Shown one piece after another: positions 35,996 through 62,148 of a stretch of 64,000 nucleotides of DNA (its first letter is position 1; every line of letters starts with the position of its first letter). Both the position numbers and the translations under genes were made by a program. The stretch comes from the human T2T-CHM13v2.0 reference genome, Homo sapiens, in the NCBI RefSeq assembly GCF_009914755.1, contig NC_060928.1, one strand, 5' to 3'. Under the pieces are notes generated by a model. It had not been told where the DNA came from and did not search any database. It was given only the letters and a program-made list of their open reading frames with translations.

Positions 35996-37539
35996 GTGTT
36001 CCTATCAGAGGAAACAGCCTGAGCAAAAGCATGATGTCCTGGAAGAGCATAGTAGGTTCTCTTATAAGTGGGAGTAGTCACAGTGAGGTTTGCTTTTACT
36101 CAGCAACAAATTCATTTCAAAAATATCATGTAGAATTCTACCAGTCTACATGTACAGGTCAGGGCACTTTTCAGCTGCTACAGAAGGAAGTAATCTCATT
36201 TTGCCAGCCCATGGCTTTTTCTCCTTTCTTCATACCCTTCTTGCTAAAATATCTTCAGGACTAAAGCTCAATTGAATGACAGCCCCTCTGGCACTCAGCA
36301 GCCTCTCCTGGAGAGGTCTCTAAAGGCTGCAAGGGCAGGCAGTATGATAGGGTAGAAATAGAGCAGAGAGTATGGCCAAGCTATGGGCTAACAAGATGAA
36401 TTTGGGTAGACAGCCAGGTCCATCACTTATTAGCTGTGTGATTTTGGGCAAATTTCTTTACCTGTCTAGCCTCCTTTTGTGTGGATATAAAACCTACCCA
36501 GGGGAGCAGGGAAATTATCTTGTAAAGCATATTTTTACCACTGACTAAGTGCTAAGCACTGTGCTAGAGTTTATTATGCATTATCTCACTTAATCCTTAA
36601 ATAAGTCTATGAATGGGTGACTACTATTATTTCCAATTTAGAGATTTTAAACATTGAGGCTCAGAGGGGTTAAACAATGTGTCCAAAGTCACACAGCAAT
36701 TGATGGGCAGAAACTTGAAAGTCCCTGCCCCTATTGTTACTTGAATACTGCCCCATGGCAAAGCATCAGGCCCGGTGTGAGGCTTGAATTAGCAGCTCAA
36801 TAAATTTATGTTCTCTCCCTTCCCACTTTCAGAGACAAGGAAGCTGAGTTACTTTCTCCAGGCCTGATAGCACTATCCACAAGCACTAGAAACAAAATAA
36901 GAATGACAAAGAGCAAGCTACCAACTATATTATTTGCCAACAAGTTCTGAGCTTTGGAGATGAGGGTTTTTAGGGTACGAGGTACCAAAACTTCTGAAGC
37001 CAAAAGAAAGCCAAAGAATCCCAATTCCTGAGCAAACTCACATCCCCATTAAAGACAAAGGTGAGAAACAGTAACTCACTGTGCAACACCATTCTATGAA
37101 ATTCTCATCCCAGGAGAAAGAAGTTATTGTGTATATTTTATAGATGTTGACCTGAGGGCTTAACTAACTTGTTCATGTCACTGGGAAGTGTCAGAACTGA
37201 GCATGGGGACCCAGAATGAGGAAAGGCGGGGCCCTGGGCTCCTCTGCAGTTGCCATTATCATCTTCTGCTCCCCTCACTCTCTGAGCTCCTGCAAGTAAG
37301 ACCTGTGTTCAGCAGTGCAGCCTGAGGGACTGGCAGGCCTGAGTAGAATCCCAGTGAAGTGTCCTCAACTTCAAACCCTTCCCTGAGGGCTCAGGGTGTG
37401 GTGCTTTGGCAGCCTTTCTTTCTTCCTGCACTAGGATTTAGCTCTCAGAGAAAGGGGTGGGGGGAGGGGACACAGCCAGCTGCATGGGGATCAAAGACGT
37501 AAGGGCCTGGCCTGTCTGCACAAGTGCTTGTCAGCCAAG

Positions 37540-38472: not shown

Positions 38473-41008
38473 CGGCTTTCAATTCATTCACATCTAGGCT
38501 GCAGCTCCAACCCAAGAGTACCCAGTCATTGTGAGGAAAAGCCACAGACAGCCCCCCGAGGGGTTCTTTCTCTCTTCCTGGCATCATTATAGCCTCGTTG
38601 CTGGATAAATTAATTACAGAGTTGGAGAGACAGAAATCCAACTCCCACCCACCATCCCCCTGAAGTATCAACATTGTGGATCTATTTATGAACTTCCAAA
38701 TCTGGAAGGTGTGACGCGCTTTGTCACTGTGCGGCCAGCACTCTGGCAGCAGCCGGAGTCTGGCTCTTTTATGTGGTGAGAAGTTATGCCTCTCTGCTCT
38801 ACCCTTCTCCCCAGCATTCACCTGGAGTGTGTCACGATGGAGGGAACAAACGTGTGTAATGCCTGAGTCTGGAACGCGCCCAGCTATGGGGCTGCTGGAG
38901 ACCTCGGTGTGGGAAGGGAAGTGGAGTTCACTCAGGCGGACAGAGAAGAATTCTTCTTGTGGCCTTAGCTTGCTCTTTGGTTAGAGGAGGGGATTTTGCC
39001 TGCCCACGAACCAGGGGATCCAGAGATGATTGTAACCCTGTTGTCCAGTCTTCCTTGATGATTATCAGAATTGTTTAGTCTTTGCAATTATGTGGAATGG
39101 AGAAGGCCATCCCGACAGTGGCGTTGTCTTATTTGATTAATATTGTCTATGTATTCAAGATACGTGCCTTATTCAATTTGGAGGGCTCCTTCATTCAGCA
39201 AGGCTGTGCCTGGAGGTATTTCATCTTCACTGGAAGGCCATGTATAAACTATATAAACTGGTGCTCTAGTAAACCTAACTGTCTCCGCAGCAGGTTAGAT
39301 GTGAATGAAGTGGGTGGGGCAGAGAGGCTGTCATCCCAAGCCACAGCCAGGAAGGTGCCTCAGGAGGTGCGAGACAAGGGCCTCTCCCGGGGAGACGCCC
39401 CTGGGTTGTGGCTGATGCTGACAGTTTCCATCCAGTGTTTTCCTGGGTGCCGTTACTATGTTTTTTTAGCCAAAACGTTTCTGAGACCTTCCAAATTTCC
39501 CTGAGTCTGATCTCCTGGGAAAGTCAGGAGGGGCAGCAGAGGGAAAGTTCCCCTTTCTCTGTAGCTCTGCAGGCCACACGCTGCCAAAGGCGGCACGATG
39601 TCAGCCAAGGTGGGAGAATGGAGCTGAATGGTGTAGCTATTTGTTGTGTGTGGTTCAGAGCTTCAAAGCCTATTAGCTTTCATTAGGAGCCAAGTCATGA
39701 CACCAACATGATCTACATAATGCTTAATGCAGCAGCTTCCAGATTTGCCCCAAATGTGAAGTGGGTGGTCAGGGCAACCTGTGGGCTGTTGAGGGAAATG
39801 TGAGGTGTGGAAAGAGAGATGCAGGATAGTGAACAGGTAGGAGCATTTTTTTGGCAGGTGGGAGGAAATCAAAAGGAGTGTTTGAGAAATTCTTGGGGCC
39901 TCTTACGATTGCTGTCTAGCAGGGTGGTCTGGGTAACATTCAGGTCTGTAGTGGGGTAGCAGTTTGGTCAGCGACTCCCCTGAGACTAGGTTCCTTGATA
40001 AGCCATGTTCATTTCATTTCAATTCACGTTTTCTCCTAGGCCGCCTCCGCCAGCAGTAATATAAGGTTTCAATCTAATTGCCGGCTACTTGAGATGTGTC
40101 CGTCTTAGACACAGGGAGTTGGGAGGCCCACAGTGAGAAGGCAACTAGATAAGTGTTCCAGTGTGGAGCCAGCCAGATGGCTATTAAATGTCTTGTGAAG
40201 GAGCTGGGCCAGGAACCCGTAGGAGAAGGTTCCTGCCGCACAGCCGGGTCTGTGGTCACATTGCTGAATGTAGCCTCCCAAGAATTGTAGGGTGGGCTGA
40301 ATGCTCCTGCTTCCTGAGGGCGTATATGTACTATGCATCCCCTGATTTCAAGGAAAAACTCAGGAAATACGTGGTCCAAGGAGAAAGGGGCCTCAATGGG
40401 CTTTTTTGTTGTTGTGATTTTGCAAGCAATCCTGAAGTGAATGCCCACAAACTGCCCACACAATATGAATAGCAGCATTCATTTCCCAGGGCAGTGAGGC
40501 CAGAGCCAGGCCTGTTGGGAGATCCTGCCCTCCCTCAGCCTCTGGGTATCTTCAGCTCTGTGGCCACTTTCCCCTGACGCAGGTTTGGGATGGTGCAAGC
40601 CGGAGGGGATTAGCAGATACCAGGAGCTTCTTCCCTCTGATCCCTGCTCTTGGACTGTCTCCTTTCGGTCTTGGACCTTTTGCTTGGCTTCTTCACCTCA
40701 GTTTCTCTATCTATAAAATGGGGATAATGGTGTTTACTTACTTACCTCATGAGTGTTATAGGAATTAATTACTGTTTGTAAAGTACTTTGAAGATGAAAA
40801 GTGTGATGTGACATCATCATTATGATGATGAAATATCTTCCATCGTTACCGGCCAGATTCTGCCAGATTCAAGCAAACATTTCATTTTGGGTTCCAAATG
40901 AGACCTTCACAGCCACACATGCGTGAGTCAGTGCACACACACATGGTCTCACGGAATATCGAGAGGTGGAGAACAACAGAAGCCATTTTCACCTAAGAAA
41001 GCCTTCTT

Positions 41009-48049: not shown

Positions 48050-48970
48050 AAACTGAGACTTCTTTTCTATTCACCCTAGTTCTGTACTCCAGGGTCAGTT
48101 GGCAGCTATAGATCTGTCTTCAGCAAAAGTCTGAGCACTTCATTCTTCATCAATACTGAATAGATGCAGACTCTTTCAGATGAATCTGTGAGCTCAGATT
48201 GAGTTGCAGTAAATCTGCCAACATAAGTAATGCATTCTCTCCAAAACTTCTCTTTGTTCTGCCTTTTCAGCAGCAATCTGTTCTTCCTTTTCAATCTCTC
48301 TAGTATCGCTGTAGAAGCAGAGATCAGGTATGACTTCCCACAGGTGCTCAGGGGAAATAGTGCCACACCCAAGCAGGACCTCATAGGCCAGCAACCATTA
48401 TGTCAGATGTCAGACCCTTTTAGTGAGTACCCTCATTTTTGCACAAGATGTCAATATCCTATGCAAAACAGAGTTGAGGAATCTCTGTTACGTAGCGCAG
48501 TAGTGAGCAGGTTAGTAGCAGATGCCTTTGGAAGATATTAATATTCAGTTCACTAAAGGAGGAGGATCCTAGAAAGCTGCCTAAATGTTCTGGGAATAAA
48601 GTGTCCAACAAAACAGATGGATCCTAGGGCAGGAGCAAGCTCCAGTACAGCAGGCTGGTTAGTATACCTGGAGAATAATGGCTGCTGGGTTTTCAATTGT
48701 TACAATGGCCTGAGATTCATAAAGAACCTTCTCCAGATCCATTTTAGGTTTAATGTATAGATATCACCACTTTTCTTTTTGTGGATATACTTATCCATCT
48801 GAAAGCAAATATTGATGCCACCCAAGTAGGCTCCTGAAGAAAGGAATTTAAGGATATTCTTTTCTTTCATCTGTAGGAATCAGAAGTATTAGATACTGAA
48901 AAATTTCCCTTTAAGTTAAGCCAGTAACCAAAGACAAATCTATATGGACCTCTCTGTGAGTAATACAGAG
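48050..48970 (-). pseudogene. RPSAP34: Processed pseudogene of RPSA (40S protein SA/uS2), heavily decayed
   Basis: ORF 48194-48394 [45 protein letters not shown] matches RPSA [45 protein letters not shown]; RPSA 5'UTR taacttaaagggaaatttt on the - strand at ~48900; intronless, ATG lost, frameshifts. Pseudogene number is from recall; 3' boundary uncertain. Confidence 0.9.
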
Positions 48971-49031: not shown

Positions 49032-51509
49032 GACTCCAGCCTGGACAACAGCATGAGACTCCATCTTTAAAAAAAAATTAGCCTGGCCTCTCCCTCTCTC
49101 CCTCTCTCCCTCTCCCCTCTCCCCTCTCCCCTCTCCCCTCTCCCCTCTCCCCTCTCCCCTCTCCCCCTTCCCACGGTCTCCTTCCACGGTCTCCCTCTGA
49201 TGCCGAGCCAAAGCTGGACGGTACTGCTGCCATCTCGGCTCACTGCAACCTCCCTGCCTGATTCTCCTGCCTCAGCCTGCCGAGTGCCTGCGATTGCAGG
49301 TGCGCGCTGCCACGCCTGACTGGTTTTCGTTTTTTTTTTTTTTGGTGGAGACGGGGTTTTGCTGTGTTGGCCGGGCTGGTCTCCAGCTCCTAACCGCGAG
49401 TGATCCGCCAGCCTCGGCCTCCCGAGGTGCCGGGATTGCAGACGGAGTCTTGTTCACTCAGTGCTCAATGGTGCCCAGGCTGGAGTGCAGTGGCGTGATC
49501 TTGGCTCGCTACAACCTCCACCTCCCAGCCGCCTGCCTTGGCCCCCCAAAGTGCCGAGATTGCAGCCTCTGCCCAGCCGCCACCCCGTCTGGGAAGTGAG
49601 GAGCGTCTCTGCCTGGCCCCCCACCGTCTGGGATATGAGGAGCCTCTCTGCCTGGCTGCCCAGTCTGGAAAGTGAGGAGCGTCTCTGCCCGGCCGCCATC
49701 CCATCTAGGAAGCGAGGAGCGCCTCTTCCCCGCCGCCATCCCATCTAGGAAGTGAGGAGCGTCTCTGCCCGGCCGCCCATCGTCTGAGATGTGGGGAGCA
49801 CCTCTGCCCCGCCGCCCTGTCTGGGATGTGAGGAGCGCCTCTGCTGGGCCGCAACCCTGTCTGGGAGGTGAGGAGCGTCTCTGCCCGGCCGCCCCGTCTG
49901 AGAAGTGAGGAAACCCTCTGCCTGGCAACAGCCCCGTCTGAGAAGTGAGGAGCCCCTCCGTCCGGCAGCCACTCCGTCTGGGAAGTGAGGAGCGTCTCCG
50001 CCCGGCAGCCACCCCGACCGGGAGGGAGGTGGGGGGGGGTCAGCCCCCCGCCCGGCCAGCCGCCCCGTCCGGGAGGTGAGGGGCTCCTCTGCCCGGCCGC
50101 CCCTACTGGGAAGTGAGGAGCCCCTCTGCCCGGCCAGTCGCCCCGTCCAGGAGGGAGGTGGGGGGGTCAGCCCCCCGCCCGGTCAGCCGCCCAGTCCGGG
50201 AGGGAGGTGGTGGGGGTCAGCCCCCCACCCGGCCAGCCGCCCCGTCCGGGAGCTGAGGGGCGCCTCTGCCCGGCCGCCCCTACTGGGAAGTGAGGACCCC
50301 TCTGCCCGGCCAGCCGCCCCGTCCGGGAGGGAGGTGGGGGGGTCAGCCCCCCGCCCGGCCAGCCGCCCAATCCGGGAGGGAGGTGGGGGGATCAGCCCCC
50401 CGCCCGGCCAGCCGCCCCGTCCGGGAGGGAGGTGGGGGGGTCAGCCCCCCGCCCGGCCAGCCGCCCCATCCGGGAGGGAGGTGGGGGGGTCAGCCCCCCG
50501 CCCGGCCAGCCGCCCCGTCCGGGAGGGAGGTGGGGGGATCAGCCCCCCGCCTGGCCAGCCGCCCCGTCCGGGAGGTGAGGGGCGCCTCTGCCCGGCCACC
50601 CCTACTGGGAAGTGAGGAGCCCCTCTGCCCGGCCAGCCGCCCCGTCCGGGAGGGAGGCGGGGGGGGGGGGTCGGCCAGCCGCCCTGTCCGGGAGGGAGGT
50701 GGGGGGGTCAGCCCCCCGCCCGGCCGGCCGCCCCGTCCGGGAGGTGAGGGACGCCTCTGCCCGGCCGCCCCTACTGGGAAGTGAGGACCCCTCTGCCTGG
50801 CCAGCCGCCCCGTCCGGGAGGGAGGTGGGGGGGTCAGCCCCCCGCCCGGCCGGCCGCCCCGTCCGGGAGGTGAGGGGCGCTTCTGCCCGGCCGCCCCTAC
50901 TGGGAAGTGGGGAGCCCCTCTGCCCGGCCACGACCCCGTCTGGGAGGTGTGCCCAGCGGCTCATTGGGGATGGGCCATGATGACAATGGCGGTTTTGTGG
51001 AATAGAAAGGCGGGAAGAGTGGGGAAAAAATTGAGAAATCGGATGGTTGCCGGGTCTGTGTGGATAGAAGTAGACATGGGAGACTTTTCATTTTGTTCTG
51101 TACTAAGAAAAATTCTTCTGCCTTGGGATCCTGTTGATCTGTGACCTTATCCCCAACCCTGTGCTCTCTGAAACATGTGCTGTGTCCACTCAGGGTTAAA
51201 TGGATTAAGGGCGGTGCAAGATGTGCTTTGTTAAACAGATGCTTGAAGGCAGCATGCTCGTTAAGAGTCATCACCACTCCCTAATCTTAAGTACCCAGGG
51301 ACACAAACACTGCGGAAGGCCGCAGGGTCCTCTGCCTAGGAAAACCAGAGACCTTTGTTCACTTGTTTATCTACTGACCTTCCCTCCACTATTGTCCTAT
51401 GACCCTGCCAAATCCCCCTCTGCGAGAAACACCCAAGAATGATCAATAAAAAAAATAAAAAATAAAAAAACAAACAAACAAACAAAAAAAAAATAAATAA
51501 ATAAATAAA
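49032..51509 (+). mobile_element. Full-length SVA retrotransposon (SVA_E-like) with 56-nt 5' extension
   Basis: CT-repeat 49088-49167, Alu-like region, GC-rich VNTR ~49565-50945, SINE-R, AATAAA 51445-51450, A-tail; perfect TSD TAAACAGCTGG at 49021-49031 and 51510-51520. cagcggctcattggggatggg and ccgggtctgtgtggatagaag are recalled SVA_E diagnostics. Confidence 0.96.
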
Positions 51510-52124
51510 TAAACAGCTGGAAAGAATTTTGCTCTTATTCTTACCAAACCAGACAAACTGCAAATTTATGCATTTCCTTGAACCCATCAAGGAACTAAGG
51601 TTGCAGGGCAACCAGCTGGCTCCTAGTCTAAGGAGAAACAGGTGCCCCAGGAAGAGAAATGCATATACTGGCATACACAGGTGGATTCGACTGAACACAA
51701 GTAAAAGGAGTTCAATGGGGTGGTTGGGGATGTGGTAGAGGCCAATGGGGAGCTGGTGTAAGAATGGGAAGCTCCTTGGGGCATTGAAATTGCCTTTTTC
51801 AGGTTTTTCTCCACAAATGTCACCAGGTACTCCCAGAAAAAGAATGAAGAAAGTTAAGTTTAACAAGTTGTCCTTTGGGTGCAGCATGGAGGATGAGAAG
51901 CAACTGCTGTTGGAGGGGCAATTAACTCCACTCAGATGCTTTTCTCTCCCTTACTACTTATGGAACAGAAGCCTGATTCTGCGGAAGGATGGGCTATAAA
52001 CACTGCTGTGCTTGGGGCACTGGTGAAAACACAATAAAACTATGGGAAGGGAATAGTTAAAAAAAACGGTGGGGAGCAGCCTCTGGGCCCATAACAATAG
52101 CCTGAGATGACAAGAGCACAGAGG

Positions 52125-55400: not shown

Positions 55401-55848
55401 AATAAATAAATAAATAAAATACCCAGGAATATGTTTAACCAAAGAGGTGAAAGATCTCTACAGAGAAAACTATAAAACAATGCTGAAAAAAGTTGAAGAC
55501 ACACACAAAAAAGGAAAGATATCCCATGTTCATAGATTAGAAGAATTAATATTATGAAAATGACCATACCACCAAAGCAATCTACAAATTCAATGCAATC
55601 CTCTATCAAAATACCAATGACATTTTTCACAGAAGTAGAAAAAATATTCCTAAAATTCATATGGAACAAGAAAAGACTGAATAACCAAAGCAATCCTGAG
55701 CAAAAACAGCAATAACAAAAATAAAAACAAAGCTGAAGGAATCACACTATCAAACTACAAAGCTGTAGTAACCAAAGCAATACGTTACTGGCAATGGAAC
55801 AAAATACAGACCCCAGAAATAAGTCCACTTATTTTCAGCCAAATGATG

Positions 55849-58800
55849 TTCTTTTTCTTTTTTGGTGGGAAGTTCATTGATTTTTACAATCAAAATTCGT
55901 CTATGAATCTGATAAAGACCTTCAGACAATTTGAAGTTTTGCAAATAAGGTTTGGGAAGCCCTCTTGTAGACCAGTTTTGTCCTCAAGTCTGTCCCCCAG
56001 AAGCCATCAGAAGTCTCCATCACCCCTGGGCTCCAGATTGCTTTTGGCCCTACTCCCAGGAGATTTGGGGGCAGGGATCTCCCTTTCCTATTCATCGTTC
56101 TCACCCCCACCCTTTTCAGCGATGGAGCTGGAGTTCCAGGCCCACGTGGTGAATGAGATCGTGAGTGTCAAGAGGGAGTATGTAGTTCAGCTGGTGCCCT
56201 GCTTCCAGGTGCCAGTGAGTCAAGTCAGGAAGAGGATGACAGGAGGGCTAATGGAGGCAGGAAGGTGGGGGATGCAGGGCCAGAGGCATGAACCCACACC
56301 CCTGCTGCCCACTCCCCATCTCCCGCTGGAAAACCCCAGTTTTTCCCCTTCCAGTTGAGCCTGAATAACACAGCGCTAAAGTCCATCATAGCTCTATTGG
56401 CGCCTGAGGGGCACTTATATTGGCCGTCATGTGTAGGGGGGCTGCTGCCCCTCCAGGCCATCAAGCGCATTGTTTCCAAGATGACACTGCTGCTGGGCTA
56501 CCTCTCTTACGCTCCTCCCTGGTGCAGGCCCTGCCCAGCATCTCCTGCAACCCGCTCCTCAGTAAGTTCTACTTCCTTACCTGGCCTTCCTGGTTTCTCC
56601 CACCTGCTGTCACCCATACCAGGGTGTTTCAGCTCAGCTCCCTGGACATCAGAGGCACAGGACCTGGCCCCTAACCATCCCACCTGCCCTCCCACCTCCA
56701 GTTTACTACATCAGCGTCCTGCTGCTGCTGCTCTTCCTCAGTGCCACAGAGATTGTGCTGCTGGCTGGGCTGCTGGCCTGGGGCAACTTTGGGGCTATGA
56801 GCAGCCCCAGACTAGTCCTGAGAGAGGAAAAGCAAGATTATGAGGATCCAGGGTCTAATCCTGAAAGTGGATGGAGGTTGAGGCACCTTCCTGGGGGTGA
56901 GGGGTAAGGAATGAGGCCTAAGTGCAGGTTGGAACAGAGAAAAACTGGCAGGTTGCCTGCCTAGGGCTGGGTGAGGTTGCTAGGTGGGTATGGCTCCTTG
57001 CACCAACCCTGCTGGCTCTCCTGTCCCTGGACTCCACCATATCCTTTCTTGTTAGAGGCAGATCTGCATCAGGGGCAAGCTTGGCCTCCCTAAAGGCCCA
57101 GGTGACCTCAGCTCTCCAAGATAACATGTTGCCTTGTGGAGCCTCTCTAAGATGGTGTTTTTTTCCATCGAAGATGGCCCGCAATGGACCAGACCCAAAC
57201 GTTCATTAACTGAGACTTTCCAGAAGGGATAGAGTCTGATGACCCCTGGGGTTCATCCTTCTGCTCATGTTGGTTGGTGGGGGGAGCCTGAAGAATGACT
57301 CCTTTCTCTGCATCTTTGCCTCATGGAAGCACCCAGAAGAATAAAGTGGTCAAAGAGAAGCTGGGCTGAGACTGTTGACCGTGACTTCTTTCTCATGTAT
57401 GTGGCCTGGGTGCTGTGCAGCCAATTCATCTTCATGGGAATTTGGATGTGAGCAGCATGCAAGTCCAACTCAGCCCCTAGAGAGGCTGTACCCCATGACA
57501 AGCAGCCAAGGCTGTAACTGCATTGGGCCTGGGTTGCAGACTTGAGGATGCAGTTTCGGTTTCCCATGGCTGGGGGTAGAGCCAAGACAGGGTCTCTGGA
57601 GAGCTGAGGAGGAAAGTCAGATCTCGTCTCTATCTCCGGAAGACCCTAAACCACCCTGAGCTCTCCCTCTGTTAGCATATAAGCAAAGAGCTTGAAATAA
57701 ACCCATCCCCAAGTGCGAGTACACCTCAAGGGTCTGTCTTCATTGAACTCAGCTATTCATTCTGATCCTAAGTAGGTAGGCCCTTACTTTTCATCCCCAC
57801 TTTTCTCCTGAATTTCTCTCCACTGTCCACCAGTCTCCCAGTCCATAGGCATGCAGCCTCACTTCTCCTTCTGCAACCATTGCTGTTTGGCCCTGGGCCA
57901 GGAGGCACTAATGCTGGGAAGTGGGAGACGGGGGCCTGGGAAGCAGGCCACAGAGGGTGGGTCAGGGCTCCTTTTCTGAATGCCTCCTAGAGAGTACTGG
58001 ACCCCAGAGGGAATGGCGAGCAGGCAGGCACTCCTGCCCCCAGTCACCTAGGGGACTCCTAGGAGATGGAACAGCCCCAGACCTCAGGTCTGTGGGCAAT
58101 GGGGAATGTGTTTTCTGCACAAAATCCAAGAGAACCTGATTGCTTTTCCCCAGGCCTTCTGACTACTCCTCTGAGAACTACCCACATTTTTGGACTGAAA
58201 AGGAAGTGCTAGTACCCATTTTTGACTGAGGCCAGAGGTAGGGCTGTTCTGCCCTCCTGCTTTTGGTACACATGAGGCAGCTGTGGGCACAGGCCTCTGT
58301 CTTCTTTCTCTCCTATCCTATTTCACAAGCTATCAGCGTCACAAAACCCAAGATGAGAAGGAACCCAGCTTTCTTGGTGAATGCTGGTTTGGTTGGAAAC
58401 ATGGGCTACGGGGAAAAAGCAGAAACCAAGACTAGAGGGCTCAGGGAGGGGGGCTCCTGGATGGGGCAGTGAAGACAAGTCTCTTTCCTAAAGGACTTCA
58501 AACTCACCCAGCCCAGAGGCAAGTTATCTGTCCAGTGACCTGGCTAGTCTGGCACAACCAGGCAGGGCTAGCGGAAGACTCAGGCAGAGGTGTTGAAAAG
58601 GTGATTGGTCATGTCATCCACCTGCTCCATGTGTATATGTACTTCTCCAGGCTCTTGGTGAAGGACATGCTGCTGAACTTGTGCCGAGAGGCCCCATAGG
58701 TTTCCTTGACAATGTTTTTTTGGGCCTGGAAAATCCTGTCCTTCTTCTCTGTGTCTGAAATAGCCCAGGCCTTTTGGATCTTGCACAGTTCTTCAAGGCC

Positions 58801-60696
58801 ATCATTGAAGCCCTTGAAACACTCCTTGATCATCTGCTGCTCCTTTTTCTAGAGTTTGACTCCTGGTTGGAACACAAGTATATTGTTCTCTGTGAAATAT
58901 TCAGTCACCTTTAGCCAGCTGCACTGGTAAGTCGGGATCTACTGCTCAATATGCTCCCAGTGGGGGTGCTCAGCAGTCTGCTGAGTCACAGCCACCAGCT
59001 AGATCAGCTCAGACTTCAGGAACTTGAGGATGTAGTTGTAGTTTTTATGCAGGAAGATGGTGCTCAGAGTTGGGTCCTCATATACCTTGGACTTGCTCAG
59101 CAAGTTCAACTGCAGGCTGCCCAGAATTTTACAGATATAGATGCTTAGCAGTCACTTGCTGAACTTGGAACCATGGCTGTGGCTGAAGAACTGGCCTCCT
59201 GGGAAGCCAGCATGTTACCCACCATCTCCTGGAAGTCCAGAAGCTGCTGCAGGAAGAGGATGACGTTGCTTGTGAGCATGGTGCCATTCTTGGGCATGTT
59301 GCATTCATTGTCGAGGTCATTTTTGATGTTATCCACAAAGTCCTCCAGTGCTTTGGCTCCAATAGACTCTAGGGAGATGATGAGGCCAGGTGATTTGTTC
59401 TTGCTGATGGCGGCCATGCCCTAGAGCACCTGGTCAAACTCAGGCTTGCTGTGCTTAGGCCCTGCGGGATGGAGAAGACAGTAAGCACCATGGAAAAGTT
59501 GTGTCAAATGATGGCCTCTGAGCAGGAGACAATACTCTCCCCTTCAGGTATCAGCCCATCCAGCACATCCTGTATCAGAGTCAAAGGTCTTCTCCTGATG
59601 GTGCTCAGCGATGATGTCAGCCAGCAACTGACACTCACTCTAGGTCAGCTTGACAAAGGTACTGACACAGTGAACGTAGGCATCAGTCTTCATGTCCACC
59701 ATCTCTCCTGGCCAGCAGCCTATGCTTGTCATTCAAGGCCTCGGACAGGTGCTTAACTTTGAAATTATTCTCTTGACCTTCCAAAGGAAGGAGGTTAGAG
59801 CATCCCTTTTCTGCAACTAAGCCATGCTTGGAATGAATACTGTTTTCAGAAGGTTTTGAGCCTTATGACATCCCTGGCCACTTGACTGGCTTTTTGGCAG
59901 GTGTCTTTTTCCTCTTGTTGGGGATAGAAGGGCAGTAGGGAATTCCAGAAAAAGAACTGTTCTTCCAGAAATACTTCTCCAGGCCTTGATGAAGCGGTCC
60001 AGCTGGCTGGAGCAAATCTTGTAGTAGACTTTCATAAATTCTTGGTTGCAGCTGTATTCCACCAGCCAGCAGGCGATGCAGATTACATCCTGGATCACAC
60101 TCTTGGGCAGGTGCTCCAGGGACATAATCTCCTGTACCTCCAGATCATCATCACCACCGATCAGATCCAGGATGAGCACAGGTGATACAAACTTATTGTG
60201 CCTGGTCATCAGGCTGCAGAGCTCAGATGTGTGTTCTGGGCTGTCTGGGCTATTGTCCTGGAAATACTCCACAGCCTTCTGAATCTTAGCCATGCTTCCC
60301 AGATACTCTTCCGGCCTACCTGTGGGGCCCTCTCTGATGATCTGCTAAGTGTCACTGGCAACATGGTAAGAGTTGATGATGTGGTCCAGGATGGATAGTG
60401 TCTTCTCAAAATTGTCTTGCAGCTGCTGCAGATTATCTGTCTGCTTGTGCACCAGGATGATGGAATTCTCCAGCTTTATATGGTAGCTCTCATATGATGA
60501 CAGGATAGACATCATGTTCTTGGTGAGCTGGTCACTTTTCTCCAGGCTGTCTTGAATATAGGACAGCACCTCCTCCTCCTGATTCAGCTTCTCTTCAATC
60601 TCTGGCAGCCAGGTGAATGCCTCCAGTGGAAGGATCATATCTGCAAACCCTATGGCTCCCACTTCCTAGTTTCACTCCTCAGCGCTCCCCACCCTG
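55849..60696 (-). pseudogene. EXOC7P1: Processed pseudogene of EXOC7 (Exo70): 5'UTR, CDS remnant 60638-58580, ~2.7-kb 3'UTR, decayed poly(A)
   Basis: ORFs EIEEKLNQEEEVLSYIQDSLEKSDQLTKNM, MAKIQKAVEYFQDNSPDSPE, IGAKALEDFVDNIKND, IKECFKGFNDGLEELCKIQKAWAISDTE, EQVDDMTNHLFNTSA* match EXOC7 collinearly with no introns, many stops/frameshifts; T-run at 55849-55863; L1 ORF2 continues on both sides. Confidence 0.96.
56120..57517 (+). pseudogene. ZACNP1: Partial intron-containing ZACN pseudogene (last four coding exons: 56120-56214, 56355-56561, 56702-~56866, ~57327-57517)
   Basis: Translations [114 protein letters not shown] match recalled human ZACN; GT-AG boundaries visible; frameshifts and premature TGA at 57449-57451. 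Confidence 0.92.
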
Positions 60697-62148
60697 CAAC
60701 TGACTATAAATAAAGGCACTAAGAGCATTCATTGGTGGGAGGGACAGTTTCTTCAATAAATGGTGCTGGGAAAACTGGATAGCCACGTGCAGAAAAATGA
60801 AACTAGAACCCTATCTCTTACCATATAAAACAATAAACTCAAAATGGGTTAAAGATTTAAATATAAGACCCAAAACTATGAAACTAGTAGGAGAAAATAT
60901 AGGGTAAACACTTAAGGACATTGGTCTGGGCAAAGAGTTTATGGAGAAGACCTTAAAAGCACATGTAATGAAAGCAAAAATAGATAAGTGGGATTATATG
61001 AAACTAAAAACTTCTGTGCAGCAAAGAAAGCAACCAACAGAGTGAAGCGACAACCTGCAGAATGGGAGAAGATATTTGCAAACTATCCATCTGACAAGGG
61101 ATTAAATCCAGAATATATAAGGAACTCAAACAAGTCAACAGCAAAATAATAATCATAATTCATTAAAACATGGGCAAATGAGCTGAATAGACATCCCTTG
61201 TAAGAAGAGATACAAATGGCCAACAGGTACATTAAAAATGCTCAATGTCATTAATCATCAGGAAAATGCAAATCAAAGCCACAAAGAGATACTATCTTAC
61301 CACAGTTAGAAAGGCTTTTATCAAAAAGATAAAAAGTAACAAATGCTGGGGAGGATGTGGAGAAAAGGGAACTCTTACATGCTATTGGTGGGAATGTGAA
61401 CTAGTACAGCCATTATGGAAAACAGTATGGAGGTTCCTTAAAAAACTAAAAGTAGAGCTAACACATGATCCAGCAATCCCACCACTGGGTATATATCCAA
61501 AGAAATATGGAGCATGTTAAAGAGATGTCTACTCTTTCATGTTTACTGCCCCAGTATTAACAATAGCTAGGATATGGACTCAGATTAATCTAAGTGTCCA
61601 TCATCAGATGAATGAATTAAAAAAAGTTACATATAGACAATTGAATACTATTTAGCCATAAAAATAACAAAGTTCTGTCATTTGTGAGAACATGGATGAG
61701 CTTCGAGGATATTATATTAAGTGAAATACACCACACAAAGATAAATATTGCACACTATCACTCATGTGAGGAAGCTAACGAAGTTATCTTGTAGAAGTAG
61801 AGAGCAATTACTAGAGACCAGGAATGGTAGAGGAAGGAGGGGATTGCCTAAGGTTGGTTAATGAACACAAAAGTAATGCTAGTTAGAAGGAATAAGGTCT
61901 AGTGAGGTCTAGTGTTCTATAGCATGATAGGTGGCTATAATTAACAACAATCTGTTGCATATGTTCAAGTAGTTAAAAGCACAGATTTTGAATGTCCCCA
62001 ATACAAGTAATGATAAATGTTTGAGGTGATAGATATTCTAATTATTCTGATTTAATCATTAGACATCGTATACATGTGTTGGAATATCACACTGTTCCCC
62101 ATGATATGTACAATTATTATGTGTCAATTAAAAATAATATAAAAGCAA

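What the first reader, a model, noticed from the sequence alone, without database searches (positions are those of the whole stretch)
55864..57701. Intron-containing ZACN fragment hitch-hiking antisense inside a retroposed EXOC7 3'UTR
Seen: one insertion bounded by a poly(A) remnant and L1 flanks is intronless for EXOC7 on the - strand, yet on the + strand holds four ZACN exons separated by introns. Known: ZACN (a Cys-loop zinc-activated channel) overlaps the EXOC7 3' end tail-to-tail at the parent locus. Inference: the long EXOC7 mRNA contains ZACN exons and introns in antisense, so L1 retroposition copied an unspliced half gene (all four TM-encoding exons). This is a route to exon shuffling through an antisense partner, and it makes an RNA-derived copy look like a DNA duplication. 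The pseudogenes are probably already annotated separately; the shared single-event origin is the point.
Basis: partly seen in the sequence, partly recalled or inferred. Interest (0 to 1): 0.85.

Follow-up and report, generated by a model that had tools for sequence, protein, structure and literature searches.

The report
EXOC7 retrocopy carrying antisense ZACN half-gene
One ancient L1-made copy of the EXOC7 messenger RNA on chromosome 4 also carries the last four exons and the introns of the neighbouring ZACN gene on the opposite strand, so three separately annotated pseudogenes are really one RNA-mediated event; it is a neat but mechanistically ordinary case.

Summary
Window 55864-60696 (minus strand) is a near full-length processed pseudogene of EXOC7. 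It lies collinear with the chr17 parent locus but lacks at least 19 EXOC7 introns. It ends about 14 nt after the only AATAAA in the parental 3'UTR, followed by a 12-nt A-rich remnant. It sits inside an L1 ORF2 with a 12-bp target-site duplication at a TTTTC/AA site.

Its 2.7-kb 3'UTR part (55864-58568) matches chr17 genomic DNA in one unbroken alignment. On the plus strand this stretch holds ZACN codons about 182-412: four exons, three whole introns and part of a fourth. Homology stops at the EXOC7 poly(A) site, about 0.6 kb short of the next ZACN exon.

ZACN introns and the EXOC7-only UTR are equally diverged, at K2P 0.286 each. The ZACN frame is dead, but all its splice dinucleotides and its AATAAA survive.

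One correction: three of the four exons encode M1-M4. The first encodes the end of the extracellular domain.

I found no paper on this locus. The mechanism follows from textbook retroposition.

The parts
55500..55851 (+). Left part of the host L1 (ORF2 region), the target of the insertion. The extent given is only what was tested.
   Evidence: The flank aligns with dispersed L1 copies L007-L033 up to 55846-55851.
55840..55851 (.). Left copy of the 12-bp target-site duplication (CAAATGATGTTC).
   Evidence: In 18 of 19 uninterrupted L1 copies compared, the two flanks overlap by 6-13 nt, most often 11-12. The L1 copies read CAACTGATTTTC followed by AACAAAGG.
55852..55863 (-). Poly(A) tail remnant (A6-G-A5 on the - strand).
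   Evidence: There is no counterpart in the parent, where the sequence continues CTTCATGATGG.
55864..58568 (-). EXOC7 3'UTR-derived part (2,705 nt), unbroken copy of chr17 genomic DNA C17 ~76977597-76980206.
   Evidence: A single HSP covers 55863-58681. MAFFT pair alignment. The stop codon TGA is at 58569-58571 on the - strand.
55864..56119 (+). 3' part (256 nt) of the ZACN intron that precedes the first copied exon. The EXOC7 poly(A) site lies inside this intron in the parent.
   Evidence: 82.5% identity over 240 aligned nt. The upstream ZACN exon is at C17 ~76976817-76977002 and was not copied.
56120..56214 (+). ZACN-derived exon (parent residues 183-223, end of the extracellular domain). 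It has a 30-nt in-frame deletion.
56355..56561 (+). ZACN-derived exon (parent residues 224-293, M1-M2). It has three 1-nt indels and one 3-nt deletion.
56702..56866 (+). ZACN-derived exon (parent residues 295-349, M3). It has a 3-nt deletion at its 3' end.
   Evidence: The 3-nt deletion was read by eye from the alignment.
57330..57517 (+). ZACN-derived last coding exon (parent residues ~350-412, M4). It has an in-frame TGA, and the original TAA is kept at 57515-57517.
57696..57701 (+). ZACN poly(A) signal AATAAA, retained.
   Evidence: the parent counterpart is at C17 76979355.
58569..60638 (-). EXOC7 coding-sequence-derived part, intronless, with frameshifts and stops. It covers RefSeq LOC124900168 and most of EXOC7P1.
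   Evidence: The ATG is at 60636-60638 on the - strand.
60639..60696 (-). EXOC7 5'UTR-derived part (about 58 nt).
   Evidence: homology to the parent runs to about 60694.
60697..60708 (.). Right copy of the target-site duplication (CAACTGACTATA).
60697..60999 (+). Right part of the host L1 ORF2. The extent given is only what was tested.
   Evidence: ORF2p residues 927-982.

Best explanation
A single L1-mediated retroposition of a fully spliced, normally polyadenylated EXOC7 mRNA produced window 55852-60696.

On chr17, EXOC7 (- strand) and ZACN (+ strand) overlap tail to tail. The only canonical EXOC7 poly(A) signal lies inside a ZACN intron, so every such EXOC7 mRNA contains the last four ZACN exons, three whole ZACN introns and part of a fourth, all as antisense sequence within its 2.6-kb 3'UTR. 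These introns are in the wrong orientation to be recognised in the EXOC7 transcript, so they stay in the mature mRNA.

L1 endonuclease nicked a TTTTC/AA site inside an older L1 ORF2 on chr4. The EXOC7 poly(A) tail primed reverse transcription, and a near full-length cDNA (4,833 templated nt) was inserted with a 12-bp target-site duplication.

The result is an intronless EXOC7 pseudogene on one strand and, on the other, a promoterless, intron-containing 3' half of ZACN (codons ~182-412). This half looks like a DNA-level duplicate but is RNA-derived. Both have decayed neutrally since.

Shown: collinearity, intron loss and retention, end points, tail, TSD, equal divergence. Inferred: the orientation-dependent escape from splicing, the TPRT steps, and the age (tens of millions of years).
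For: Collinearity with the parent. The whole-genome search finds only chr4 (the window itself) and chr17. blastn gives 20 collinear pieces, 55863-60684 <-> C17 76977591-77000299. The first piece (2.8 kb) is unbroken genomic sequence. The other 19 are adjacent in the window but separated by 0.1-3.3 kb in the parent.

Identity of the two genes. Parental exons hit human ZACN chains (8yx6/9let) over their full length, native residues 183-223, 224-293, 295-348 and 349-412; the printed exon-7 alignment is identical at all 70 residues. Exo70_C matches at E 6.5e-14 and mouse Exo70 2PFT at E 1.5e-48.

The 3' end. The parent has exactly one AATAAA and no ATTAAA on the - strand across C17 76977560-76980217, at 76977605. 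In the window the homologous hexamer (AATCAA) is followed by 14 nt and then A6GA5, where the parent has unrelated sequence.

The 5' end. The ATG and about 58 nt of 5'UTR are present.

The target site. Flanks align with uninterrupted L1 copies so that 12 nt of L1 (CAACTGATTTTC) occur on both sides. This holds in 18 of 19 copies, with overlaps of 6-13 nt. The flank encodes ORF2p residues 927-982.

No extension beyond the mRNA. Nothing but Alu and noise at E >= 0.45 matches C17 76970001-76977590. That region contains the ZACN exon for residues 123-184.

Same age for both parts. K2P values: ZACN introns 0.286 +- 0.022 (915 nt), EXOC7-only UTR 0.286 +- 0.023 (838 nt), ZACN exons 0.193 +- 0.020 (654 nt). 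EXOC7 codon positions 1/2/3 give 0.201/0.116/0.256. Sites neutral in both lineages therefore show about twice the divergence of sites constrained in the parent, as expected for one old copy.
Against: The TSD copies are only 7 of 12 identical to each other. The duplication is inferred mainly from alignment to other L1 copies, and 1 of 19 copies showed a gap instead of an overlap. The tail remnant is short (12 nt).

I had no transcript annotation for chr17. That the retrocopy end equals the EXOC7 mRNA 3' end rests on the unique AATAAA and the tail, not on a deposited mRNA.

Divergences come from one MAFFT pairwise alignment with many gaps (264 gap columns in the 2.9-kb HSP). The codon-position figures use only 11 of 19 exon pieces (1,289 nt), namely those with a single open frame, and one of these includes some 5'UTR.

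No other species could be examined, so presence or absence of the two parts together in other lineages is untested. Escape from splicing because of antisense orientation is inference, not observation.
Confidence: 0.95

Rival explanations
1. A DNA-level (segmental) duplication copied the 3' half of ZACN to chr4, and an unrelated EXOC7 processed pseudogene landed next to it, or the EXOC7 part lost its introns later.
For: The ZACN part keeps exon-intron structure, splice dinucleotides and its poly(A) signal. This is the criterion by which pseudogene pipelines call a copy 'duplicated' (PMC3491395, PseudoPipe passage).
Against: One unbroken HSP runs from the ZACN intron through the ZACN 3' end and the EXOC7-only UTR into the last EXOC7 coding exon. 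The copy ends exactly at the EXOC7 poly(A) site with an A-tail, and a TSD brackets the whole 4.8 kb. Divergences of the two parts are equal. There is no homology to the ZACN exon 0.6 kb further on.
Confidence: 0.02
2. The template was an aberrant EXOC7 transcript (read-through past the normal poly(A) site, or partly unspliced pre-mRNA), so the ZACN passenger is an accident of a rare RNA rather than of the normal mRNA.
For: I could not compare with deposited EXOC7 mRNAs. A 2.6-2.7-kb 3'UTR is long.
Against: The parent has no other AATAAA or ATTAAA on the EXOC7 strand anywhere between the stop codon and the site used. The copy ends 14 nt after that hexamer. All EXOC7 intron positions detected (19) are cleanly removed.
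Confidence: 0.03
3. A chimeric retrocopy arose by L1 reverse-transcriptase template switching from EXOC7 mRNA to unspliced ZACN RNA.
For: Two genes are represented in one insertion.
Against: The two parts are on opposite strands, and they are joined exactly as in the chr17 genome, with 0.87 kb of shared non-ZACN UTR between them. A template switch would join two sense RNAs at an arbitrary point.
Confidence: 0.005

Closest known systems
Ordinary L1-mediated processed pseudogenes (retrocopies)
   Same: Intron loss, an end at the parental poly(A) site, an A-tail, a TSD, an endonuclease-type target, a dispersed location and a decayed ORF are all present here.
   Different: The 3'UTR of the template overlaps another gene. 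The copy therefore also contains that gene's exons and introns on the other strand, and it is annotated as three pseudogenes of two parent genes.
Pseudogene-borne antisense transcripts (Muro and Andrade-Navarro 2010, PMC2984423; abstract, Background and Discussion read)
   Same: They propose that when a gene with a cis-antisense partner is copied, the partner is copied with it.
   Different: [quoted passage not shown] They do not describe an RNA-mediated copy that keeps the antisense partner's introns. This locus is not mentioned in the parts I read.
Exon shuffling by L1 3' transduction (Moran et al. 1999; recalled, not read here)
   Same: L1 machinery moves non-L1 exons to a new place.
   Different: In transduction the exons lie downstream of an L1 and travel attached to it, in sense. 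Here no L1 is attached: the L1 flanks are the target and are continuous apart from the TSD. The carrier is a cellular mRNA and the passenger is antisense, which is why its introns survive.
Engineered retrotransposition indicator cassettes (antisense reporter interrupted by a sense intron; recalled, not read here)
   Same: They use the same logic, that splicing depends on orientation relative to the transcript being reverse-transcribed.
   Different: This is the mirror image. In the cassette the intron is in sense to the carrier and is removed. Here the introns are antisense to the carrier and are kept.
Antisense exon recruitment from retrocopies (Baertsch et al. 2008, PMC2584115; passages only)
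   Same: Sequence antisense to a retrocopy can supply exons.
   Different: Those exons are novel, made from the antisense of coding sequence. Here the antisense strand carries pre-existing exons with their own splice sites and poly(A) signal.

Membership tests
L1-mediated processed pseudogene of EXOC7 | Parental introns are absent while exon order is kept | tested here: met
   20 collinear pieces. 19 junctions are adjacent in the window but 0.1-3.3 kb apart in C17.
L1-mediated processed pseudogene of EXOC7 | The 3' end is at the parental poly(A) site and is followed by a poly(A) tail | tested here: met
   The only AATAAA on the EXOC7 strand of the 3'UTR is at C17 76977605. The window has 14 nt after the hexamer and then A6GA5, which is absent from the parent.
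L1-mediated processed pseudogene of EXOC7 | A target-site duplication flanks the whole insert | tested here: met
   12 nt of host L1 are present on both sides, seen in 18 of 19 comparison copies. The two copies are only 7 of 12 identical.
L1-mediated processed pseudogene of EXOC7 | The target resembles the L1 endonuclease site TTTT/AA | tested here: met
   Uninterrupted L1 copies read ...GATTTTC|AACAAAGG at the insertion point. The consensus itself is recalled.
L1-mediated processed pseudogene of EXOC7 | Sequence identity with EXOC7/Exo70 | tested here: met
   Exo70_C at E 6.5e-14 and 3.3e-7. 2PFT at E 1.5e-48.
Unprocessed (DNA-duplicated) pseudogene of ZACN | Exon-intron structure of the parent is retained | tested here: met
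   Four exons, three whole introns and part of a fourth align with C17.
Unprocessed (DNA-duplicated) pseudogene of ZACN | Origin by DNA duplication: homology is not bounded by the ends of a transcript and extends into neighbouring exons or flanks | tested here: not met
   Homology stops at the EXOC7 poly(A) site. Nothing matches the ZACN exon 0.6 kb further on or anything else upstream. The other end continues into spliced EXOC7.
Functional ZACN (Cys-loop channel) gene copy | A complete open reading frame with an extracellular domain and M1-M4 | tested here: not met
   Only codons ~182-412 are present. There are three 1-nt indels, deletions of 30 nt and of 3 nt (twice), and an in-frame TGA. 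The three upstream exons of the RefSeq model have no ZACN homology.
L1 3' transduction | The mobilised sequence is attached to the 3' end of a co-inserted L1 | tested here: not met
   The L1 on both sides is one older element interrupted by the insert, continuous apart from the TSD.

The most novel reading that the evidence does not exclude
Antisense-passenger retroposition is a general, under-recognised route. Wherever a well-expressed gene's 3'UTR overlaps a convergent neighbour, L1 can copy ready-made exon-intron modules of that neighbour (acceptors, donors and poly(A) signal intact, as here) to new sites without any DNA duplication. If so, a measurable share of pseudogene fragments catalogued as 'unprocessed/duplicated' would be RNA-derived. 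Such promoterless cassettes could occasionally be captured as 3'-terminal exons of host genes or lncRNAs. The chr4 cassette itself might be spliced into a local transcript.
Probability: 0.3. Interest if true: 0.55.

Novelty: new variant of a known kind. Interest (0 to 1): 0.35.

Why it matters
It shows that three RefSeq records (ZACNP1, LOC124900168, EXOC7P1) are one insertion.

It also shows that 'has introns' does not prove a DNA-level origin, which bears on pseudogene classification, parent assignment and dating. By the structural criterion quoted in the GENCODE pseudogene paper, ZACNP1 would count as duplicated although it is RNA-derived.

The case documents that the long EXOC7 3'UTR overlapping ZACN was already in use in the germ line when the copy was made.

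Finally, it gives a concrete example of how convergent gene overlap lets retroposition move intact splice-competent modules. The mechanism is an expected consequence of known biology, so the surprise is modest.

Tried and rejected
Pfam on single ZACN exons, from both parent and window, gave nothing. Identity was obtained from PDB sequence searches instead.

Pfam on the L1 flanks gave nothing useful, only a noise-level hit below cut-off. The PDB search identified ORF2p.

I used per-exon frames instead, which dropped 8 of 19 pieces with more than one open frame.

Canonical AC/CT dinucleotides lie within 5 nt of every HSP edge. That is weak evidence, because such dinucleotides are common, so I do not lean on it.

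An apparent 2-residue mismatch between my exon borders and the ZACN chain numbering came from a 3-nt deletion in the window shifting my coordinate mapping. It is not a real discrepancy.

I tested whether the three upstream exons of the RefSeq ZACNP1 model are ZACN-derived. blastn and tblastn gave only noise: best E 0.003, located in an EXOC7 intron on the wrong strand.

Literature searches for this locus or for the mechanism found no description. Subscription journals and unsearched PMC articles are not covered.
Full report
WHAT IS THERE

The own-genome search shows that the window lies on contig C4 of a held human assembly. A search with the EXOC7 part (57702-60690) likewise finds only C4 and C17.

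I fetched 60 kb of the C17 locus (L034-L039) and compared it with window 55700-60900 by blastn. Twenty collinear pieces result. The first, 55863-58681 <-> C17 76977591-76980323, is one unbroken 2.8-kb alignment (73.5% identity counting 264 gap columns). The other 19 pieces (58677...60684 <-> 76980574...77000299, 73-93% identity) abut one another in the window but are separated by 0.1-3.3 kb in C17. So on the strand that reads EXOC7, the introns are gone.

Window ORFs on the - strand match Pfam Exo70_C (E 6.5e-14 and 3.3e-7) and mouse Exo70 2PFT (E 1.5e-48). They are broken by stops and frameshifts.

THE ZACN PART

In the MAFFT pair alignment, the four RefSeq ZACNP1 exons inside the insert correspond to four C17 segments with AG/GT borders. 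Their translations hit human ZACN chains 8yx6/9let over their full length. The printed exon-7 alignment is identical at all 70 residues. The hits cover native residues 183-223 (E 1.6e-21), 224-293 (E 1.5e-36), 295-348 (E 1e-30) and 349-412 (E 1.4e-40) of 412. The stretches between them align with the parental introns.

So the + strand carries codons ~182-412, three whole introns and the last 256 nt of the preceding intron, down to the ZACN AATAAA at 57696-57701.

The first exon has no hydrophobic segment (maximum Kyte-Doolittle-19 score 0.33). The other three have maxima of 1.93, 2.42 and 2.23, and the second exon aligns with M1-M2 of 5-HT3A. Three exons therefore encode the four helices, and the first encodes the end of the extracellular domain.

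The ZACN frame is dead. It has a 30-nt deletion, three 1-nt indels, two 3-nt deletions and an in-frame TGA (one 3-nt deletion was read by eye). All four AG acceptors, all three GT donors and the poly(A) signal are still there. With about 0.13 substitutions per site, keeping 14 such bases has a chance of roughly one in seven under neutrality (my arithmetic). This is not evidence of selection.

THE ENDS

On the EXOC7 strand the parent has one AATAAA and no ATTAAA in the whole interval from the stop codon to beyond the breakpoint (C17 76977560-76980217). That hexamer is at 76977605. The window has the homologous hexamer (now AATCAA), then 14 nt, then A6GA5 (55852-55863 on +). The parent continues with unrelated sequence.

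At the other end the copy contains the ATG (60636-60638) and about 58 nt of 5'UTR, with homology to ~60694. The templated length is 4,833 nt (55864-60696).

THE TARGET

Both flanks are a high-copy repeat (4371 first-look candidates, 40 scored). The right flank translates to LINE-1 ORF2p residues 927-982 (E 9e-24).

I aligned the two flanks separately to 26 dispersed copies fetched. Nineteen copies had alignments reaching both junctions. In 18 of those 19, the left flank's end and the right flank's start overlap on the same L1 by 6-13 nt, mostly 11-12. One copy showed a 10-nt gap instead. The uninterrupted copies read ...CAGCCAACTGATTTTC|AACAAAGG.... The window has CAAATGATGTTC at 55840-55851 and CAACTGACTATA at 60697-60708. 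This is a 12-bp target-site duplication, degraded to 7 of 12 identity between its copies, at a TTTTC/AA site. That site fits the L1 endonuclease preference (the preference itself is recalled).

(a) Does homology continue past the EXOC7 poly(A) site into upstream ZACN exons? A sensitive blastn (word 7, E up to 10) of the whole 64-kb window against C17 76970001-76977590 gave 224 hits. All significant ones fall in two Alu-rich stretches (76970001-76970877 and 76974682-76975344). Between 76975345 and 76977590 the best E-value is 4. That interval does contain ZACN: the ORF at L035 646-1251 matches ZACN residues 123-184 (E 2.2e-34), about 0.6 kb from the breakpoint. So the copy stops inside a ZACN intron, exactly where the EXOC7 mRNA ends.

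(b) Is there a breakpoint or a different age? No breakpoint exists, because a single HSP crosses the border. K2P distances from the pair alignment are as follows:
- ZACN introns: 0.286 +- 0.022 (915 nt)
- EXOC7-only UTR: 0.286 +- 0.023 (838 nt)
- ZACN exons: 0.193 +- 0.020 (654 nt)

For EXOC7 coding pieces with a single open parental frame (11 of 19 pieces, 1,289 nt, one of them including some 5'UTR), codon positions 1/2/3 give 0.201/0.116/0.256.

The pattern is what one old copy predicts. Sites free in both lineages show about 0.29. Sites held constant in the parent show about half of that, which is the copy's own decay.

Taking ~0.12-0.14 per lineage with recalled mammalian neutral rates of 1-2.2e-9 per year gives an age of some 60-130 million years. 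This is only an order-of-magnitude inference. The host L1 differs from its best-matching relatives by about 13-29% (identities 71-87%), which is compatible with the L1 being older than the insert.

MECHANISM

The best explanation (0.95) is a single target-primed reverse transcription of a normal, spliced, polyadenylated EXOC7 mRNA. Its 3'UTR runs antisense through the 3' half of ZACN because the two genes converge and overlap. The ZACN introns are antisense in that RNA, so the spliceosome does not remove them. This step is inferred.

Three rivals were considered:
- A DNA duplication plus a separate retrocopy (0.02) is excluded by the continuous alignment, the single bracketing TSD and the transcript-defined end.
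- An aberrant read-through template (0.03) is unlikely because the site used is the only canonical signal.
- A template-switch chimera (<0.01) is excluded by orientation and by genomic collinearity.

ANNOTATION

RefSeq lists three pseudogenes here, and all belong to this one insert. The ZACNP1 model runs from an ATG at 37216 to the ZACN-derived TAA at 57515-57517, so it is coding-sequence only. Its first three exons (37216-37295, 38620-38775, 48271-48422) have canonical splice sites but no DNA or protein similarity to ZACN. They look like predicted filler rather than ZACN sequence. I had no transcript data to say whether they are ever used.

LITERATURE

'ZACNP1' or 'EXOC7P1' appear in 0 papers. 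Seven papers hold both ZACN and EXOC7; none concerns the overlap, judging by title and abstract start. Six papers hold ZACN, pseudogene and zinc-activated. In the one I opened (PMC5650660, passages), 'pseudogene' refers to GLRA4, and ZAC is said to be functionally absent from mouse and rat.

The closest concept I found is Muro and Andrade-Navarro 2010 (PMC2984423; abstract, Background and Discussion read). They propose that a cis-antisense transcript can be copied with a pseudogene, argued mainly for DNA duplication.

Baertsch et al. 2008 (PMC2584115, passages) describe novel exons taken from the antisense of retrocopies. [quoted passage not shown] ZACNP1 breaks that rule.

Further searches found no description of an RNA-mediated copy that keeps an antisense partner's introns. 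Subscription journals are not covered.

VERDICT

It is a clean, instructive case of a known process with an unusual by-product. It is useful for annotation, but it is not a new kind of system.

Noticed in passing
window 37216-37295, 38620-38775, 48271-48422: The three upstream exons of the RefSeq ZACNP1 model have canonical splice sites. Together with the ZACN-derived exons they give a 262-codon stop-free stretch from an ATG at 37216, yet they show no DNA or protein similarity to ZACN. The model runs ATG to TAA only, so they look like predicted filler. The third lies antisense within RPSAP34.
   Followed up: partly
window 58580-60689: RefSeq LOC124900168 and EXOC7P1 overlap (60228-60530) and are parts of the same retrocopy. 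The 'intron' of LOC124900168 (59703-59757) lies within sequence that aligns to parental exons (59569-59705 and 59710-59779), so it is not an intron.
   Followed up: partly
window 57601-57646: A stretch of about 46 nt in the ZACN 3'UTR-derived part has no counterpart in the chr17 parent. It is either an insertion in the copy or a deletion in the parent. This cannot be decided without an outgroup.
   Followed up: no
L035 1605-1610 (C17 76977605): EXOC7 has a single canonical poly(A) hexamer in its ~2.6-kb 3'UTR, and that hexamer sits inside a ZACN intron. The sense-antisense overlap with the last four ZACN exons is therefore obligatory for canonically polyadenylated EXOC7 mRNA.
   Followed up: partly
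window 60218-60229 versus the parent: About 14 codons of EXOC7 present in mouse Exo70 (2PFT residues ~55-68) are missing from the retrocopy between two exon-derived pieces. This could be a deletion in the copy or a splice variant of the template. It was not resolved.
   Followed up: no
window 49113-49161 and about 50000-50840: Many staggered short hits to the same 28-30-nt parental stretches indicate tandem or low-complexity repeats inside the long masked block 49179-51519.
   Followed up: no
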